Positions 34,813 to 58,481 of a stretch of 64,000 nt of DNA are shown here, in pieces. Source of the stretch: Escherichia coli (GTDB lineage Bacteria > Pseudomonadota > Gammaproteobacteria > Enterobacterales > Enterobacteriaceae); assembly GCA_002099625.1 (NCBI GenBank), contig GCA_002099625.1_4857.1. One strand, written 5' to 3'. How positions within the stretch are numbered: position 1 is the stretch's first letter; the number at the start of each line of letters is the position of its first letter. The notes beneath the pieces are model-generated. The model was not told where the DNA came from. It did no database searches and was given only the letters and a program-made list of their open reading frames with translations. The position numbers were made by a program, and so were the translations under genes.

Positions 34813-34829
34813 GTAATATATATCTGAAA
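34813..34829 (-). promoter_or_regulatory. conserved promoter-like box (copy 1 of 5)
   Basis: minus-strand TTTCAGATATATATTAC about 60 nt upstream of the start codon at 34752; same box recurs at four other minus-strand gene starts. Confidence 0.4.
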
Positions 34830-34850
34830 ATAATTGTAATCGGACTAGGC

Positions 34851-34886
34851 AAAAAAAGAAGAAACCCTACTCCCGAAGGAGTAGGG
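34851..34886 (-). terminator. rho-independent terminator (CUUCGG loop)
   Basis: CCCTACTCC-CGAA-GGAGTAGGG hairpin; minus-strand T-run TTTCTTCTTTTTTT. Confidence 0.55.
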
Positions 34887-34923
34887 TACTGCTTTATTCG
34901 CCACCCTTGGGATAAGCGTCATC

Positions 34924-35352
34924 CTAGTTGATGTGGAGTAGAGTGTCCTTCAACGCCTTCTGCTTTTCGTACGACTGACGACACAAGGAAGTCAGCGTCG
35001 AATACGCCGTGCCGGTACGCACCGGTAATTCGCCACCCGCTTCGGTGGGTTCTGTACGAACAAAAGACCCTTCTTCAAACGGCGGCGCTGCGTGTGGGAA
35101 GTTCTTTTTCATGTATCGCTTATACCAGCCGGCCACAACACGGATAACTTTTGGCATCTGAGATCGTCGGTCACGTACTTTCTTCCCGTGCATCTGATTC
35201 ATCTCGGAAGACATGCATAGCGAGGTGTACTGACTGAATCCGTCACTGACCCACTTACCGTCCTGGACCAGTAATTTCTTACCAACTGCTACAGCGATTC
35301 TCGGAGAGAAAATGACCGCACCATCTTTACGTTTCTTAGGCTTAAGCATCAT
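34924..35352 (-). CDS. hypothetical basic protein
   Basis: 142-aa ORF; N-terminus MMLKPKKRK resembles the N-terminus of the next gene. Confidence 0.5.
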   Translation of the reverse strand: MMLKPKKRKDGAVIFSPRIAVAVGKKLLVQDGKWVSDGFSQYTSLCMSSEMNQMHGKKVRDRRSQMPKVIRVVAGWYKRYMKKNFPHAAPPFEEGSFVRTEPTEAGGELPVRTGTAYSTLTSLCRQSYEKQKALKDTLLHIN

Positions 35353-36145
35353 TATCGTCCTTGTATAGGGAGTCGTAAGGGCTGTTAGTGTTCATGTTAA
35401 ATTCTTGTTCTACTTCAGGATGTTGTGAAAGGGAATCCAGAAAGATCGGTTGATATCCACCCTCTGTACGTTTCTTTATCATTTCAAGGAACGACTTTCC
35501 ATCAGGAACATCAGGTGTTGATACTAACACCGTGTCAGAGACTGTCGGTAAACGCGTGCAGCCTTCAGTGTTCAGCTGTAGTACCGCGTCTGGTGCGATG
35601 TGTCTGATGTTAGGAAACTTCAACGCGATCTCTTCCATCTTCGCTTTCAATGCATCACCGTTTAGCAGCGGTACAGTCGGCGTCATATAAGCGAACTCAA
35701 CATCTCGATCGGCCACATAATCGCGTAAGTGTTTTCGGGCTGCTACTGTAGCAGAAACTTGCTCTTTATTAGCGTTTATGCCGATGCCATTAAAACGTTT
35801 TAGTTTGTCTAAGAAAACGTTAATGTTTTCCTTCGGCATAGGGCGTGGGAACTTACGCAGAAAATAAAGTTGTTCGCGGCCAGGCACCCAGCTGAGCACC
35901 CAGCACGCTTTTAGTGTACGGAAGATATCACGATAGGGTTTCTTCTCTTGAAAGAAATCCCCTTTTAACTGGCAACGGTCTTCAACCATTGCCTGGAGTT
36001 GGGTGGCTACGTTGGCCATTGCCGACCAGGTGATAAGACGACTACGGTGTTTACCCACGTAGAGACGTCCACCTGTAATACGACGAGACTGTGGATGTAC
36101 TATTTTGACAAACTGTAATCTTTTCTGCTTGCGTGGTTTTAACAT
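35342..36145 (-). CDS. hypothetical protein
   Basis: 267-aa ORF; N-terminus MLKPRKQKR. Confidence 0.5.
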   Translation of the reverse strand: MLKPRKQKRLQFVKIVHPQSRRITGGRLYVGKHRSRLITWSAMANVATQLQAMVEDRCQLKGDFFQEKKPYRDIFRTLKACWVLSWVPGREQLYFLRKFPRPMPKENINVFLDKLKRFNGIGINANKEQVSATVAARKHLRDYVADRDVEFAYMTPTVPLLNGDALKAKMEEIALKFPNIRHIAPDAVLQLNTEGCTRLPTVSDTVLVSTPDVPDGKSFLEMIKKRTEGGYQPIFLDSLSQHPEVEQEFNMNTNSPYDSLYKDDNDA

Positions 36146-36190
36146 TTGAATACTCCTTAAGGTCGTATCTAATTTGAAACTGTTGTTTTT

Positions 36191-36562
36191 TTAAGGATTA
36201 ACGAACAGTCTGCCAACCTCGTAAGATGGCGGTGCCTCGGTACTTTTGCGTTCGGGGCTAATGGGGAAATCGAACACAGGTGTTTCCATAATGTCCGGCG
36301 GCATAACCCCGTCGTTCATTTCCAGAACTCGTCTGCGTACCTTGTCCCTGAACTCGGTATCCTCGCCTTGCCACAATACGGTCAGGATTTCCTCCCGTGT
36401 AAAATCCTTACGAAGCATGTATTCTAGCGCTGCATAAATGAACACTTTTTCTTCATGTAACTGTGCTTCGTATTCTTTCCTGGCAGACAACGCTTGTTTA
36501 TAAAGTTCGCGCTCCTCATGCCCAAAGAACAGACGCCGCCACCACACCATTAATTTACTCAT
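36191..36562 (-). CDS. hypothetical protein
   Basis: 123-aa ORF. Confidence 0.45.
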   Translation of the reverse strand: MSKLMVWWRRLFFGHEERELYKQALSARKEYEAQLHEEKVFIYAALEYMLRKDFTREEILTVLWQGEDTEFRDKVRRRVLEMNDGVMPPDIMETPVFDFPISPERKSTEAPPSYEVGRLFVNP

Positions 36563-36971
36563 CTTTTACCTCGTATCCATGACTACGAAAATACTCGATG
36601 GCCGCAGAACGTTTACCTACACAGGAGAGTTTTTCATAGAGTAACTCAAGGAGTGTCTTTGGTTCCCAACGCCGCTCTATGAAATAGATTAGGGCACCCA
36701 GGTTCCATCCTAACATCTTGTCACGCAGATCCGCATCTCGTCGGGCATCCCGTAGCTCATCTTCGAGTTTCCGGTTCTTAGACTGTTCCTCAGAAAGTAG
36801 TCGTGTAAGCTTACGGCGTTCTTCGAAAGATTCATCAAGATTTCTCTTCCACGCTTCTTTCGAAATTTCTAACTCAGTCTTTGATAGGCTGAGTTCCAAT
36901 TCCAGTATTTCTAATTGGCGGCGCAATTGTTTTTTCTCCTGAAACAGGCCGAACATGTTTTCTCCTTGCAA
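36555..36971 (-). CDS. hypothetical coiled-coil protein
   Basis: 138-aa ORF; charged heptad-like segment LRRQLEILELELSLSKTELEISKEAWKRNL. Confidence 0.45.
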   Translation of the reverse strand: MQGENMFGLFQEKKQLRRQLEILELELSLSKTELEISKEAWKRNLDESFEERRKLTRLLSEEQSKNRKLEDELRDARRDADLRDKMLGWNLGALIYFIERRWEPKTLLELLYEKLSCVGKRSAAIEYFRSHGYEVKDE

Positions 36972-37021
36972 TAGCCCTATCGATTCTGTTACGAACTTCT
37001 GCTAACGATAACGTTTCCCAC

Positions 37022-56779: not shown

Positions 56780-56824
56780 ATTTAGTGGACTGGAAGCAAA
56801 AAAGCATAAGACTGTTCTGATCTG

Positions 56825-56863
56825 TAAAAAAGGCAATACCCTCTTACCCGAAGGTAAGAGGGG
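56825..56863 (-). terminator. rho-independent terminator (CUUCGG loop)
   Basis: ACCCTCTTACC-CGAA-GGTAAGAGGGG hairpin; minus-strand T-run TTGCCTTTTTTAC. Confidence 0.55.
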
Positions 56864-56869
56864 GTACAA

Positions 56870-57493
56870 CTAACCTGCCAAAATTCGTTCAACGATACGG
56901 GCGGCCTGTAACGCCATATCGTCGTCTGCTGCGATTCGCATCAGTGGGAATTTATCACCACCGTCTGTAGTGATGTGGAACGCAAAACGGTAATGGTCGC
57001 GTAATGCGTCCCAATCGGTCTGTGAGCGCAGATACTTCGCTGTCAGTACCTCATCATCCCAGTTCTTACCTTGTGCTTCTACGCGCTTCTTAAAGCGTTC
57101 TGTGGCGGTTTCGTAAGATACATCGGTTGCCACGTAAAGCTTTGGTGCGTTAATGTGGTCTAATACCCGCGAACGGAAAACTTCCCCTTTACCATCTACG
57201 CCCTGGTAGACAATGGTCGATTGACAAAAACGGTCAAAAATAACGACATCGTGCTCTGGTACAACGAAGTCCATTGTATATTGGAAATCCAGACACATCG
57301 CTTTGGCAATACGTTCACTAGAGGCGTGCTGGATAACCAGAGAGCGTGCACTAATACCGGCTTCAGTGGTATTCGTCGGGTGATTGACGATGATGGCATT
57401 AACGCCAGCGGAGCGCAACATCGCTTGAATCATTTTAGCGAGTGTTGATTTGCCAGAAAAATCTGGACCATCCAGCGCCACTGAGTTTAACAT
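56870..57493 (-). CDS. P-loop nucleotide kinase (thymidylate/dNMP kinase-like)
   Basis: ORF 56870-57577 trimmed to ATG 57493 (MLNSVALDGPDFSGKSTLAK) with GGGGAAG RBS; Walker A GPDFSGKST; size and layout like small nucleotide kinases. Confidence 0.6.
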   Translation of the reverse strand: MLNSVALDGPDFSGKSTLAKMIQAMLRSAGVNAIIVNHPTNTTEAGISARSLVIQHASSERIAKAMCLDFQYTMDFVVPEHDVVIFDRFCQSTIVYQGVDGKGEVFRSRVLDHINAPKLYVATDVSYETATERFKKRVEAQGKNWDDEVLTAKYLRSQTDWDALRDHYRFAFHITTDGGDKFPLMRIAADDDMALQAARIVERILAG

Positions 57494-57555
57494 TTTATTC
57501 TTCCCCAAAAGTTTAATTAATTGTAGTGGTGTCACAATATAGCGACCAGACGTAA

Positions 57556-57597
57556 AGAAAAAAAATAAAACAGGCACCCCGAAGGATGCCTGACATT
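57556..57597 (-). terminator. rho-independent terminator
   Basis: CAGGCACC-CCGAAGG-ATGCCTG imperfect hairpin; minus-strand T-run TTTTATTTTTTTTCT. Confidence 0.5.
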
Positions 57598-57605
57598 AGA
57601 TGTTA

Positions 57606-58364
57606 TTACTCGATAGCCTTGTGGTTCTTCATTTCTGGTGTCCAGGTGTGCTCAATCCATGCTTCGATGACCGGCTTGATGCCCGGACTTTTGAAGAATG
57701 CATTTAATGACGGCCATTCCCCTAACGCGTACTTGTTAGTGAAATTGAGCGACATTACACTGAAGCCTTCGCGTTTGTTAAACAACGCAGAAGGGGCCAA
57801 GGAATAAGACAACATGGCCTGCGGCGTATCCGATTCGGGACGCAGCAGTGTCATGCGGCGGGTGACACGCAGTTCAATATCGTTGAAGTTAGCCCGGAGG
57901 TCTTCTTTAAATTTGACACTGCGGAAGAAACGATTTCCTGTTTCGGATGCTTTATTTACCAATCGCTCGGTTTGCATCACGTCTTTAAAATACGCATTGA
58001 TACATTCTTCAATGAAGACATAGCGTGGTGCAGCTTCACGCAGTGCTTCTAAGTCGAACTCTTTCCACGCGGGTATGAGTTCAGGCTTACGAGCGATGTG
58101 TTTAAAGAACATCCTGGCTGAGACTTCACGCAGTGCTTTCAGCAACCCGCGAATAACATCTTCCCGCGTTGCGTTAGTTGCGAAGAACTCAGTCGTGCCG
58201 TGTACAAAGGTAGCGCCAGTTTTAGCGCTGATGAGCTTATGCTCTATCATAATCGGCATCCCGCCCTTACCGATCATCTCTTCGTTATACAAAAACACAT
58301 AACGATATTCGCCACAGGCAGTGGGGACGGACAGGAACTCTTTCTTCGTAGTATTAACAGTCAT
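57606..58364 (-). CDS. hypothetical protein
   Basis: 252-aa ORF. Confidence 0.5.
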   Translation of the reverse strand: MTVNTTKKEFLSVPTACGEYRYVFLYNEEMIGKGGMPIMIEHKLISAKTGATFVHGTTEFFATNATREDVIRGLLKALREVSARMFFKHIARKPELIPAWKEFDLEALREAAPRYVFIEECINAYFKDVMQTERLVNKASETGNRFFRSVKFKEDLRANFNDIELRVTRRMTLLRPESDTPQAMLSYSLAPSALFNKREGFSVMSLNFTNKYALGEWPSLNAFFKSPGIKPVIEAWIEHTWTPEMKNHKAIE

Positions 58365-58464
58365 GGTATTTCTCTCTTAGTTTAAGTTGGTGAGTTTTAA
58401 CCGACTCACAACGGCTTCTAGCATATGCTAAGGATGAAACGTAAATTTTGCACGTCTCCCTAAG

Positions 58465-58481
58465 ATAATATCTATCCGAAA
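58465..58481 (-). promoter_or_regulatory. conserved promoter-like box (copy 5 of 5, one mismatch)
   Basis: minus-strand TTTCGGATAGATATTAT about 100 nt upstream of the start at 58364. Confidence 0.35.

What the first reader, a model, noticed from the sequence alone, without database searches (positions are those of the whole stretch)
34813..58481. Five copies of a conserved promoter-like box with two families of near-identical leaders
TTTCAGATA(T/G)AT(A/G)TTA(C/T) (minus-strand sense) occurs 37-100 nt upstream of the start codons at 34752, 39623, 50151, 56705 and 58364, usually right after the preceding terminator. The leaders downstream of the box fall into pairs: those of genes 34306-34752 and 56340-56705 are near-identical for about 80 nt, and those at 39623 and 58364 share AAATTTACGTTTCA. 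The box does not match a canonical sigma-70 -35/-10 pair, so it may be recognised by a phage-modified polymerase or a phage regulator, and the leader families suggest co-regulated regulons.
Basis: seen in the sequence. Interest (0 to 1): 0.5.

Follow-up and report, generated by a model that had tools for sequence, protein, structure and literature searches.

The report
Early promoters of a jumbo phage
The five repeated boxes are copies of the genome-wide early promoter of an SPN3US-like giant Salmonella/E. coli phage, most likely read by the RNA polymerase the phage injects with its DNA: a known kind of signal, here with extra conserved leader elements attached.

Summary
Four exact copies and one 1-mismatch copy of TTTCAGATAKATRTTAY lie on the minus strand; shuffles predict none. 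The window is 96-97% identical to SPN3US-like jumbo phages, which are phiKZ relatives with two phage-encoded multisubunit RNA polymerases.

In the full SPN3US genome the box occurs 24 times. All copies are co-oriented with genes, 22 of 24 are intergenic, and they sit 26-261 nt upstream of non-structural genes, including nvRNAP subunit genes. The architecture is AGATA[G/T]AT[A/G]TTA[T/C]-(6N)-G. This matches the mapped AR9 early promoter (AAATATATATTAT-6N-G(+1)) and the phiKZ TATATTAC-6N-G sites. The boxes are invariant at orthologous positions in three genera while their flanks diverge. None matches a sigma-70 promoter.

Best reading: early promoters for the virion RNA polymerase, starting at window 34806, 39682, 50181, 56757 and 58458.

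Both leader families are real:
- Family 1 has a 5'-terminal hairpin with compensatory changes, then AATCGACYATTA and the Shine-Dalgarno sequence.
- Family 2's shared word belongs to a second promoter class, TTAC-N15-TATG (phiKZ middle/late-like), which is strongly spacing-specific and intergenic.

This is a new member of a known kind and of modest interest. No transcript mapping was available.

The parts
34813..34829 (-). Early promoter box P1 (TTTCAGATATATATTAC, about -23 to -7). Predicted start is G at 34806. It drives gene 34306-34752 (148 aa, unknown function; SPN3US gp135).
   Evidence: orthologous site in SPN3US at 113982; analogous site in Asesino L007:47113
39689..39705 (-). Early promoter box P2 (TTTCAGATAGATGTTAT). 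Predicted start is G at 39682. It drives gene 39291-39623 and a run of small genes.
   Evidence: orthologous boxes in SPAsTU L009:38387 and Asesino L007:41652
50188..50204 (-). Early promoter box P3 (TTTCAGATAGATGTTAT). Predicted start is G at 50181. It drives gene 49846-50151. No terminator lies upstream; a terminator at 49814-49839 follows the first gene.
   Evidence: the 17-mer is invariant in SPN3US, SPAsTU, Asesino and Caitlin while flanks diverge
56764..56780 (-). Early promoter box P4 (TTTCAGATATATATTAC). Predicted start is G at 56757. It drives the HTH DNA-binding protein gene 56340-56705.
58465..58481 (-). Early promoter box P5 (TTTCGGATAGATATTAT, 1 mismatch). Predicted start is G at 58458. 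It drives gene 57606-58364, followed by terminator 57571-57592 and the thymidylate kinase gene.
34786..34806 (-). 5'-terminal leader hairpin of P1 (GAGAGTTAA-caa-TTAACTCTT), beginning at the predicted +1
56737..56757 (-). 5'-terminal leader hairpin of P4 (GAGAGTT-actacta-AACTCTC). Orthologues keep the stem through paired changes (SPAsTU GAGCGTT/AACGCC).
58436..58458 (-). 5'-terminal leader hairpin of P5 (GAGACGTG-caaaatt-TACGTTTC)
34770..34781 (-). Conserved pre-Shine-Dalgarno word AATCGACCATTA (family-1 leader), 27-29 nt before the ATG
56724..56735 (-). Conserved pre-Shine-Dalgarno word AATCGACTATTA (family-1 leader)
58422..58444 (-). Nested second-class promoter TTAC-N15-TATG inside the P5 leader (predicted start is G at 58422). 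It contains the family-2 word AAATTTACGTTTCA.
39647..39669 (-). Nested second-class promoter TTAC-N15-TATG inside the P2 leader (predicted start is G at 39647). It contains the family-2 word.
   Evidence: Orthologues keep TTAC-N15-TATG with different spacers, read by eye from the leader sequences printed.
56805..56827 (-). Second-class promoter TTAC-N15-TATG between the terminator and box P4 (predicted start is G at 56805)
   Evidence: conserved in SPN3US, SPAsTU and Caitlin with three different 15-nt spacers
50856..50878 (-). Second-class promoter TTAC-N15-TATG upstream of gene 50506-50823. It is not attached to an early box.
34864..34887 (-). UUCG-loop intrinsic terminator preceding P1
39718..39745 (-). 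UUCG-loop intrinsic terminator preceding P2
56839..56862 (-). UUCG-loop intrinsic terminator preceding P4 and its TTAC-N15-TATG site
58495..58516 (-). UUCG-loop hairpin (ACCCACTCC-ttcg-GGAGTGGGT) preceding P5. It was not flagged by the scan because its T-tract is interrupted.
   Evidence: read from the sequence

Best explanation
The five boxes are early promoters of an SPN3US-like, phiKZ-related jumbo phage. Right after DNA injection, the co-injected five-subunit virion RNA polymerase (SPN3US gp42/218/240/241/244) recognises an AT-rich element at about -23 to -7. This element has invariant A-13, T-12, T-10 and A-8, plus an A at -29. Transcription starts at the conserved G seven nucleotides downstream, at window 34806, 39682, 50181, 56757 and 58458. 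The transcripts encode small non-structural proteins, an HTH protein and the thymidylate-kinase unit, and they are bounded by UUCG-loop terminators.

Shown here: motif, statistics, genome-wide distribution, orientation, cross-genus conservation, and identity of architecture with the AR9 and phiKZ early promoters.

Inferred: the polymerase, the start site and the early timing.

The two leader families add further layers. Family 1 couples the TATATATTAC-CTAGGT variant to a hairpin that starts at +1 (probably an mRNA-stabilising 5' stem-loop) and to a conserved AAUCGACYAUUA word before the Shine-Dalgarno sequence. Family 2 carries a nested TTAC-N15-TATG promoter of the nvRNAP (middle/late) type, which would give those genes dual early and later expression.
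For: 1. The box is far above chance.
2. The window is 96-97% identical to SPN3US-like phages. SPN3US packages a five-subunit vRNAP (PMC5694885).
3. The whole SPN3US genome has 24 PWM sites scoring >=21.8, none scoring between 8 and 21.8, and a null maximum of 14.5. All 24 are on the gene strand. 22 of 24 are intergenic in a 93.6% coding genome (P about 1e-24).
4. None of the 22 first downstream genes is structural, against 54 of 264 overall (P=0.005).
5. Boxes precede the other RNAP-annotated (non-virion) genes, taken here as nvRNAP subunits: 28965 precedes ACQ60_gp232/231, and 15610/15703 precede the operon with ACQ60_gp243, a homologue of phiKZ gp55 (E=8e-43). In phiKZ, early promoters drive nvRNAP subunit expression (PMC13282480).
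6. The architecture equals the mapped AR9 early consensus AAATATATATTAT-(6N)-G(+1) (PMC5312081) and the phiKZ TATATTAC-(6N)-G sites, including the one upstream of PHIKZ054. 23 of 24 SPN3US sites have G at that position.
7. A review states that every RNAP-encoding jumbo phage has such an AT-rich motif centred near -10 upstream of early operons (PMC7598289).
8. Boxes are invariant at orthologous sites in Seoulvirus, Erskinevirus and Machinavirus while flanks diverge.
9. No sigma-70-type match falls at any box, and sigma-70-like sites are not enriched.
Against: No 5'-end or time-course data exist for SPN3US-like phages in the searchable literature. The start site, timing and polymerase are therefore inferred by homology.

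No jumbo-phage vRNAP had been shown to bind these motifs in vitro as of the 2020 review.

The G-variant box has partial dyad symmetry (AGATA-N5-TATCT), so a dimeric regulator could also bind it.

The window itself contains no RNAP gene. Their presence is taken from 96-97% identical genomes.

The PWM statistics are partly circular, because the matrix was trained on the sites it scores.
Confidence: 0.85

Rival explanations
1. The box is a promoter for the non-virion RNA polymerase (middle or late class), or for another polymerase form, and not for the injected virion enzyme.
For: It is clearly a phage-specific promoter-like element. The polymerase assignment rests on homology only. Two boxes sit in regions rich in virion genes.
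Against: phiKZ nvRNAP promoters are defined by TATG at the start site (PMC12809450; PMC7598289), and the box lacks this. A separate TTAC-N15-TATG class that fits the nvRNAP pattern exists in the same genome. The box matches the early consensus of AR9 and phiKZ down to the 6N-G spacing. It also precedes nvRNAP genes, which must be transcribed before nvRNAP exists.
Confidence: 0.06
2. The box is mainly an operator for a dimeric phage DNA-binding protein, for example the HTH protein encoded downstream of box P4, which switches a regulon on or off.
For: There is partial dyad symmetry AGATA-N5-TATCT in 17 of 24 sites, with reverse-strand PWM shadows. An HTH_3 protein is encoded directly behind P4.
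Against: The invariant positions and flanks are asymmetric (A at -29, 6N-G). All 24 sites are co-oriented with the downstream gene at promoter-like distances. The T-variant breaks the dyad. The same motif architecture occurs in phiKZ and AR9, where tblastn found no homologue of this HTH protein. This reading is not exclusive of promoter function.
Confidence: 0.05
3. The box is a host sigma-70 (extended -10) promoter used by Salmonella/E. coli RNA polymerase early in infection.
For: It contains TATATT/TATTAT hexamers that resemble TATAAT.
Against: No -35/-10 pair with 16-18 nt spacing is found at any of the five boxes, and sigma-70-like hits in the region are at or below shuffle expectation (21 vs 26.8; 10 vs 13). 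Conservation extends over about 30 nt in a pattern unlike sigma-70. phiKZ-type phages transcribe independently of host RNAP (PMC7598289, PMC13282480).
Confidence: 0.02
4. The repeats are primarily recombination cassettes (terminator plus promoter, like T4 PeSLs) whose similarity reflects recent spread by recombination and not selection for a common regulatory function.
For: A composite terminator-plus-promoter arrangement is seen at 4 of 5 sites. Unrelated genes share about 80% identical 80-nt cassettes. One of four indels relative to SPN3US (window 34917-35704) abuts the terminator and box of P1.
Against: Only 1 of 4 indels touches a cassette. Boxes are held invariant at orthologous sites across genera, which indicates functional constraint. 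Hairpin stems show compensatory changes rather than simple copying. This would add to promoter function, not replace it.
Confidence: 0.02

Closest known systems
Early (virion-RNAP) promoters of phiKZ-related jumbo phages: phiKZ TATATTAC-(6N)-G; AR9 AAATATATATTAT-(6N)-G(+1)
   Same: Both have an AT-rich, roughly 10-13 nt, highly conserved element centred near -10, followed by a 6-nt spacer and a G start. Both occur in about 24-40 copies per genome, upstream of non-structural operons that include nvRNAP genes. The phages encode split-subunit vRNAP and nvRNAP.
   Different: The SPN3US-clade consensus has its own upstream half (TTTCAGATA, with A at -29). It has two discrete variants (GATAGATRTTAT and GATATATATTAC) and a conserved +1 GAG. 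Start sites and timing are mapped in AR9 and phiKZ but not in this clade.
phiKZ middle and late (nvRNAP) promoters: A-rich/TAC(T) motif centred at about -22 to -24, and T(-3)ATG(+1)
   Same: The TTAC-N15-TATG sites place TAC at -21 to -19 and TATG at -3 to +1. They are intergenic and co-oriented with genes.
   Different: In phiKZ the two elements define separate classes, and no fixed-spacing composite is described in the papers read here. In SPN3US both elements occur together at a strict 15-nt spacing. This applies to the family-2 leader word, not to the box itself.
PeSL cassettes of T4-type phages (composite early promoter plus stem-loop/terminator motifs; PMC2839356, PMC4122927)
   Same: Both are dispersed intergenic composites of a terminator stem-loop and an early promoter that flank small, variable, non-homologous genes.
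   Different: PeSL promoters are sigma-70 early promoters read by host RNAP, whereas these are phage-RNAP promoters. A role in modular shuffling is not established here (1 of 4 indels).
5'-terminal stem-loop mRNA stabilisers of enterobacteria (ompA-type; from general knowledge, not tested here)
   Same: Both are hairpins that start within 1-3 nt of the predicted 5' end. Here the hairpin is maintained by compensatory changes.
   Different: The 5' end is only predicted. No decay data exist. The hairpin is present in only about 40% of early leaders.

Membership tests
phiKZ-related jumbo-phage early (vRNAP) promoter | The phage encodes a virion-packaged multisubunit RNA polymerase | tested here: met
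   The window is 96-97% identical to SPN3US-like genomes. SPN3US virions contain vRNAP subunits gp42/218/240/241/244 (PMC5694885), and RNAP genes are annotated in NC_027402. The window itself carries no RNAP gene.
phiKZ-related jumbo-phage early (vRNAP) promoter | A highly conserved AT-rich element of about 10 nt centred near -10, followed by 6 nt and a G start (AR9 AAATATATATTAT-6N-G; phiKZ TATATTAC-6N-G) | tested here: met
   The motif is AGATA[G/T]AT[A/G]TTA[T/C]-6N-G. 23 of 24 SPN3US sites and 5 of 5 window sites have the G.
phiKZ-related jumbo-phage early (vRNAP) promoter | Over-represented genome-wide, intergenic, co-oriented, and upstream of non-structural (early) operons including nvRNAP genes | tested here: met
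   There are 24 sites, all on the gene strand. 22 of 24 are intergenic. 0 of 22 first genes are structural (P=0.005). Sites precede nvRNAP genes.
phiKZ-related jumbo-phage early (vRNAP) promoter | Primary 5' ends at the predicted G, present within minutes of infection and independent of host RNAP and of new protein synthesis | not testable with these tools
   No transcriptome or primer-extension data for SPN3US-like phages were found.
Host sigma-70 promoter | TTGACA-like and TATAAT-like hexamers 16-18 nt apart | tested here: not met
   No minus-strand hit overlaps any box, and counts are at or below shuffle expectation.
Single-subunit (T7/SP6-like) phage RNAP promoter | A ~23-nt conserved promoter together with a phage single-subunit RNAP gene | tested here: not met
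   No single-subunit RNAP is annotated among the 264 SPN3US genes; only split beta/beta'-like subunits are present. The resemblance to SP6 (TTAGGTGA) is limited to 8 nt.
phiKZ-type nvRNAP (middle/late) promoter - applies to the TTAC-N15-TATG sites, not to the box | TATG overlapping the start site, with an AT-rich/TAC element near -22 | tested here: met
   There are 24 sites at N15, against 3-5 at N13, N14, N16 and N17 and 7.4 in the null. 16 of 24 are intergenic (P=3e-14). Sites are conserved in orthologues with different spacers. Use by nvRNAP is not testable here.
T4-type PeSL cassette | Composite terminator stem-loop plus early promoter | tested here: met
   4 of 5 boxes follow a UUCG-loop terminator.
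T4-type PeSL cassette | The promoter is a sigma-70 early promoter | tested here: not met
T4-type PeSL cassette | Cassettes mark indel or gene-shuffling junctions between close relatives | tested here: inconclusive
   1 of 4 indels relative to SPN3US abuts a cassette. Only one genome pair was examined.

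The most novel reading that the evidence does not exclude
The early promoter may be only the DNA part of a modular ~80-100-nt cassette: terminator, optional TTAC-N15-TATG promoter, vRNAP promoter, +1 hairpin, AAUCGACYAUUA, Shine-Dalgarno. In this reading the RNA elements form a post-transcriptional code for a subset of early mRNAs. A trans-acting phage or host factor would recognise the conserved single-stranded AAUCGACYAUUA word or the 5' hairpin. That factor would control stability, translation, or handling of transcripts made inside the early infection vesicle or phage nucleus. 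Separately, the strict TTAC-N15-TATG composite would show an upstream specificity determinant for nvRNAP that the phiKZ work has not been able to define.
Probability: 0.25. Interest if true: 0.6.

Novelty: new member of a known kind. Interest (0 to 1): 0.3.

Why it matters
For annotation, the result gives predicted early transcription units, start sites and terminators for SPN3US-like phages. These phages are a genetic model for giant phages and a candidate therapeutic group, and I found no transcript map for them.

It shows that the TATATTAY-6N-G early-promoter architecture is shared across Pseudomonas, Bacillus and enterobacterial jumbo phages. This supports an ancient, conserved recognition mode for the virion RNA polymerase.

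The side observations give concrete, testable handles on two open issues in this family. The first is a strictly spaced TTAC-N15-TATG class, with dual early and later promoters on some genes. The second is a covarying +1 hairpin plus a conserved pre-Shine-Dalgarno word. They bear on what beyond TATG specifies nvRNAP promoters, and on whether early mRNAs carry RNA-level signals.

The boxes are also ready-made parts for driving early expression of engineered payloads in these phages, as has been done with the phiKZ consensus early promoter (PMC12676376).

Tried and rejected
- Sigma-70 promoter: rejected by the scans.
- Gene duplication as the source of leader similarity: rejected, because the proteins downstream of each pair are unrelated.
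- Box as part of the terminator: rejected. P3 and several SPN3US sites lack a terminator and directly abut the previous stop codon.
- Known RNA families in the leaders: none. There was a single sub-threshold Rfam hit.
- RNAalifold on MAFFT-aligned family-1 leaders gave no structure, because variable loop lengths misaligned the arms. I replaced it with a self-versus-cross arm complementarity test.
- IMG/VR search with the HTH protein returned only SPN3US itself, so relatives were taken from the GenBank phage collection.
- Full-text search for the motif strings found no phage paper.
- Three papers could not be opened: Lavysh 2016 (motif predictions for all relatives), Ceyssens 2014 (phiKZ promoters) and Weintraub 2019 (SPN3US proteome time course). 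I could therefore not confirm whether this exact SPN3US consensus is already printed.
- BLASTP of the 617-aa protein behind SPN3US boxes 15610/15703 against phiKZ chimallin gp54 gave no significant match. The chimallin assignment rests on synteny and size only and is not claimed.
- TTAC-N19-TATG (7 hits in the window): all are in coding sequence with no common flanks, so I treat them as chance.
- AATCGACYATTA as a late promoter: not supported. It is tied to the Shine-Dalgarno distance and absent upstream of structural genes. Its function remains unexplained.

Full report
**1. The observation**

The pattern TTTCAGATAKATRTTAY matches exactly four times and once with one mismatch. All five matches are on the minus strand, at 34813, 39689, 50188, 56764 and 58465. 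Dinucleotide-preserving shuffles give 0.00 exact matches and 0.08 matches with up to 2 mismatches. Reading the five loci shows conservation beyond the 17-mer, out to about 30 nt...TTTCRGATAKATRTTAY-YTNMNK-GA.

Four of them follow strong hairpins with a CTTCGG loop and a T-tract. The box at 50188 instead follows the previous stop codon directly.

The leaders of genes 34306-34752 and 56340-56705 have 66 identical positions in 81 aligned columns from box start to ATG. The leaders of 39623 and 58364 share AAATTTACGTTTCA exactly. The proteins downstream of each pair are unrelated. 'Near-identical for 80 nt' is somewhat generous.

**2. What the window is**

Megablast places the window in SPN3US-like jumbo phages: Seoulvirus, about 240 kb, 96-97% identity to SPN3US, EC001, phage 1252 and others. 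These are phiKZ relatives. They package a five-subunit virion RNA polymerase (SPN3US gp42/218/240/241/244; PMC5694885) and encode a second, non-virion polymerase.

The five boxes lie upstream of SPN3US gp99 (followed by thymidylate kinase gp100), gp101 (an HTH_3 protein), gp112, gp125 and gp135. Apart from the HTH protein, these are small proteins of unknown function.

**3.

I assembled the whole SPN3US genome from six annotated stretches and scanned it. A weight matrix built from the sites finds 24 sites scoring at least 21.8. Nothing scores between 8 and 21.8, and Markov-simulated genomes reach 14.5 at most. The matrix was trained on these sites, so that separation is partly circular.

- All 24 sites are on the gene strand.
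- 22 of 24 are intergenic in a genome that is 93.6% coding (P about 1e-24).
- The predicted 5' UTRs are 26-261 nt.
- None of the 22 first downstream genes is annotated as a virion or morphogenesis gene, against 54 of 264 overall (Fisher P=0.005).
- Sites precede the other RNAP-annotated, non-virion genes, taken here as nvRNAP subunits. Site 28965 precedes ACQ60_gp232/231. Sites 15610 and 15703 precede an operon containing ACQ60_gp243, a homologue of phiKZ nvRNAP subunit gp55 (E=8e-43).

An unbiased 8-mer enrichment over the -100 to -15 regions of all 264 genes puts box words at the top of the list.

**4. Identity of the motif**

Counting from the conserved G, the invariant positions are A-29, A-13, T-12, T-10 and A-8. 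23 of 24 SPN3US sites and all five window sites have G exactly 7 nt after the box.

The experimentally mapped early consensus of phage AR9 is AAATATATATTAT-(6N)-G, where G is the transcription start (dRNA-seq plus primer extension; PMC5312081).

In the first 50 kb of phiKZ I find TATATTAC-(6N)-G upstream of PHIKZ005, 006, 010.1, 031, 036, 041.3 and 054. Gp054 is reported to have an early-type primary start (PMC8244752).

The review PMC7598289 states that every RNAP-encoding jumbo phage has such an AT-rich motif of about 10 nt centred near -10 upstream of early operons, that it was confirmed as the early promoter wherever transcripts were profiled, and that it must be recognised by the virion polymerase. 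The 2026 review adds that phiKZ early promoters drive nvRNAP subunit expression.

The SPN3US box therefore has the same architecture, copy number, gene targets and logic. By homology the starts are at window 34806, 39682, 50181, 56757 and 58458.

**5. Conservation**

The same matrix finds boxes at orthologous positions in three other phages:
- Salmonella phage SPAsTU, a divergent Seoulvirus.
- Erwinia phage Asesino, an Erskinevirus.
- Erwinia phage Caitlin, a Machinavirus.

In the alignment of the P3 region, the 17-mer TTTCAGATAGATGTTAT is invariant in all five sequences while both flanks diverge. Klebsiella phage Miami has a drifted relative, ATCTATATTAC-(6N)-G.

**6. Rival explanations**

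- Sigma-70 promoter: no hit falls at any box, and sigma-70-like sites are not enriched.
- Terminator-only element: excluded by P3 and by several SPN3US sites that abut stop codons.
- Operator for a dimeric regulator: the G-variant has partial dyad symmetry (AGATA-N5-TATCT) that produces reverse-strand shadows, and an HTH gene follows P4. However, the invariant flanks are asymmetric, the T-variant breaks the dyad, and the sites are co-oriented at promoter distance. The same architecture also occurs in phiKZ and AR9, where tblastn found no homologue of this HTH protein. A regulator that also binds the box cannot be excluded.
- nvRNAP promoter: phiKZ nvRNAP reads TATG at the start site (PMC12809450). 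The box lacks this, while a separate TATG-containing class exists in the same genome (section 8 below).

**7. Leader family 1 (P1 and P4)**

These two boxes belong to the TATATATTAC-CTAGGT-GAG variant, which has at least 7 copies in SPN3US.

Their leaders begin at the predicted +1 with a hairpin whose stems differ between copies through changes on both arms. Examples are GAGAGTT/AACTCTC, GAGCGTTA/TAACGCT, GAGATTGC/GTAATCT, GATAGA/TCTATC and GAGATGAG/CTCATCT. The orthologous pair window/SPAsTU shows GAGAGTT/AACTCTC against GAGCGTT/AACGCC.

Across 40 predicted early leaders from four phages:
- 17 have a 5'-terminal hairpin, against 19.8% of random GA-starting windows.
- A leader's first 7 nt find a perfect partner in their own downstream 20 nt in 17.5% of cases, against 2.2% when arms are swapped between leaders.

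A 5'-terminal stem-loop that protects mRNA is the most economical reading. This is an inference from general knowledge of enterobacterial mRNA decay.

After the hairpin comes AATCGACYATTA, fixed 27-29 nt before the ATG. It is also present at internal genes that lack a box (SPN3US 57148, 224199) and is enriched in upstream regions. It is predicted to be single-stranded. Its role is unknown: it could be a translational enhancer or a protein-binding site.

**8. Leader family 2 (P2 and P5)**

The shared word is part of AAAATTTAC, which is followed after exactly 15 nt by TATG.

Genome-wide, TTAC-N15-TATG occurs 24 times. The N13, N14, N16 and N17 spacings occur 3-5 times each, and simulated genomes give 7.4. 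16 of the 24 are intergenic (P=3e-14), and most lie 24-100 nt upstream of co-oriented genes or tRNAs.

The window has 9 sites, against 0-1 at neighbouring spacings. Five sit before genes: starts at 58422, 56805, 50856 and 39647 on the minus strand, and 4554 on the plus strand.

Orthologous regions keep TTAC and TATG at N15 with entirely different spacers (for the P2 orthologues, my own reading of the leader sequences printed).

The geometry puts TAC at -21 to -19 and TATG at -3 to +1. This combines the phiKZ middle motif (A-rich/TAC(T) centred near -22) with the late TATG. I therefore read family 2 as a nested nvRNAP-type promoter. It would give the genes at 39623 and 58364, and the HTH gene in the reverse order, dual early and later promoters. 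This is as described for PHIKZ054 and for AR9 'continuously expressed' genes.

**9. Comparison with T4 PeSL cassettes**

The terminator-plus-early-promoter composites before unrelated small genes resemble PeSLs (PMC2839356, PMC4122927). However, the promoter type differs, and only one of four indels relative to SPN3US abuts a cassette. I treat this as an analogy and not as membership.

**10. Verdict**

The boxes are real, non-random and functional-looking. With about 85% confidence they are the virion-RNA-polymerase early promoters of this phage.

The kind is well known. A bioinformatic prediction for all relatives is cited in the review, but I could not open that paper, and full-text searches for the motif found nothing. 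I rate this as a new member of a known kind, with modest interest.

The more interesting residue is the strictly spaced TTAC-N15-TATG class and the covarying +1 hairpin with the AAUCGACYAUUA module. Both need transcript mapping to be believed.

Noticed in passing
window 58422-58444, 56805-56827, 50856-50878, 39647-39669 (minus strand); 4532-4554 (plus strand); SPN3US genome-wide: A second over-represented promoter-like class, (W-rich)TTTACG-N14-TATG, with strict spacing. SPN3US has 24 sites at N15 against 3-5 at neighbouring spacings, and 16 of 24 are intergenic (P=3e-14). It is conserved in orthologues with different spacers and looks like a composite of the phiKZ middle (TAC near -22) and late (TATG) motifs.
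   Followed up: yes
window 34770-34781 and 56724-56735 (minus strand); SPN3US 57148, 65457, 94282, 114032, 167594, 223320, 224199: A conserved word AATCGACYATTA lies at a fixed 27-29 nt before start codons and is tied to the Shine-Dalgarno distance. It also occurs at internal operon genes that lack the early box. Its function is unexplained.
   Followed up: partly
window minus strand: 34864-34887, 39718-39745, 49814-49839, 55231-55256, 56839-56862, 57571-57592, 58495-58516, 63788-63811: Nearly all strong terminator hairpins on the gene strand use the same C(U/T)TCGG tetraloop. CCTTCGGG is among the most enriched upstream 8-mers in SPN3US. Several terminators follow the first gene after a box, giving single-gene early units (for example 49846-50151 and 57606-58364).
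   Followed up: partly
window 34917-35704, 36163-36553, 43734-45199, 60525-60971: There are four indels or replacements relative to SPN3US. An ~0.8-kb insertion abuts the terminator and box of P1. A ~0.4-kb segment is non-homologous. A ~1.5-kb expansion makes ORF 43245-45290 (681 aa) much longer than SPN3US gp144 (177 aa). About 0.45 kb of extra sequence lies near the acetyltransferase gene.
   Followed up: partly
SPN3US (L002) 15610 and 15703; (L003) 72482 and 72680: Tandem pairs of early boxes lie 93 and 198 nt apart, upstream of the 617-aa protein plus nvRNAP gp55-homologue operon and upstream of gp190 plus the 'polymerase' gp189. The leader of 72482 contains an unannotated small ORF with a good Shine-Dalgarno sequence (ATG near 72541). 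The 617-aa protein is syntenic with phiKZ chimallin gp54, but BLASTP shows no similarity.
   Followed up: partly
window 17156-33419 (minus strand): A long array of roughly 265-500-aa ORFs corresponds to a run of SPN3US 'virion structural protein' genes. BLAST shows about 73% nucleotide cross-matches between members (window 23693-23926 and 20302-20514 against SPN3US 128.3 kb and 124.9 kb), which suggests a paralogous family.
   Followed up: no
L011 (Klebsiella phage Miami) 12597, 19924, 21466, 24072: A diverged version of the early motif, TTTTRRATCTATATTAC-(6N)-G, lies upstream of genes in a more distant jumbo phage. This suggests the TATATTAY-6N-G core is shared widely while the upstream half drifts by clade.
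   Followed up: partly
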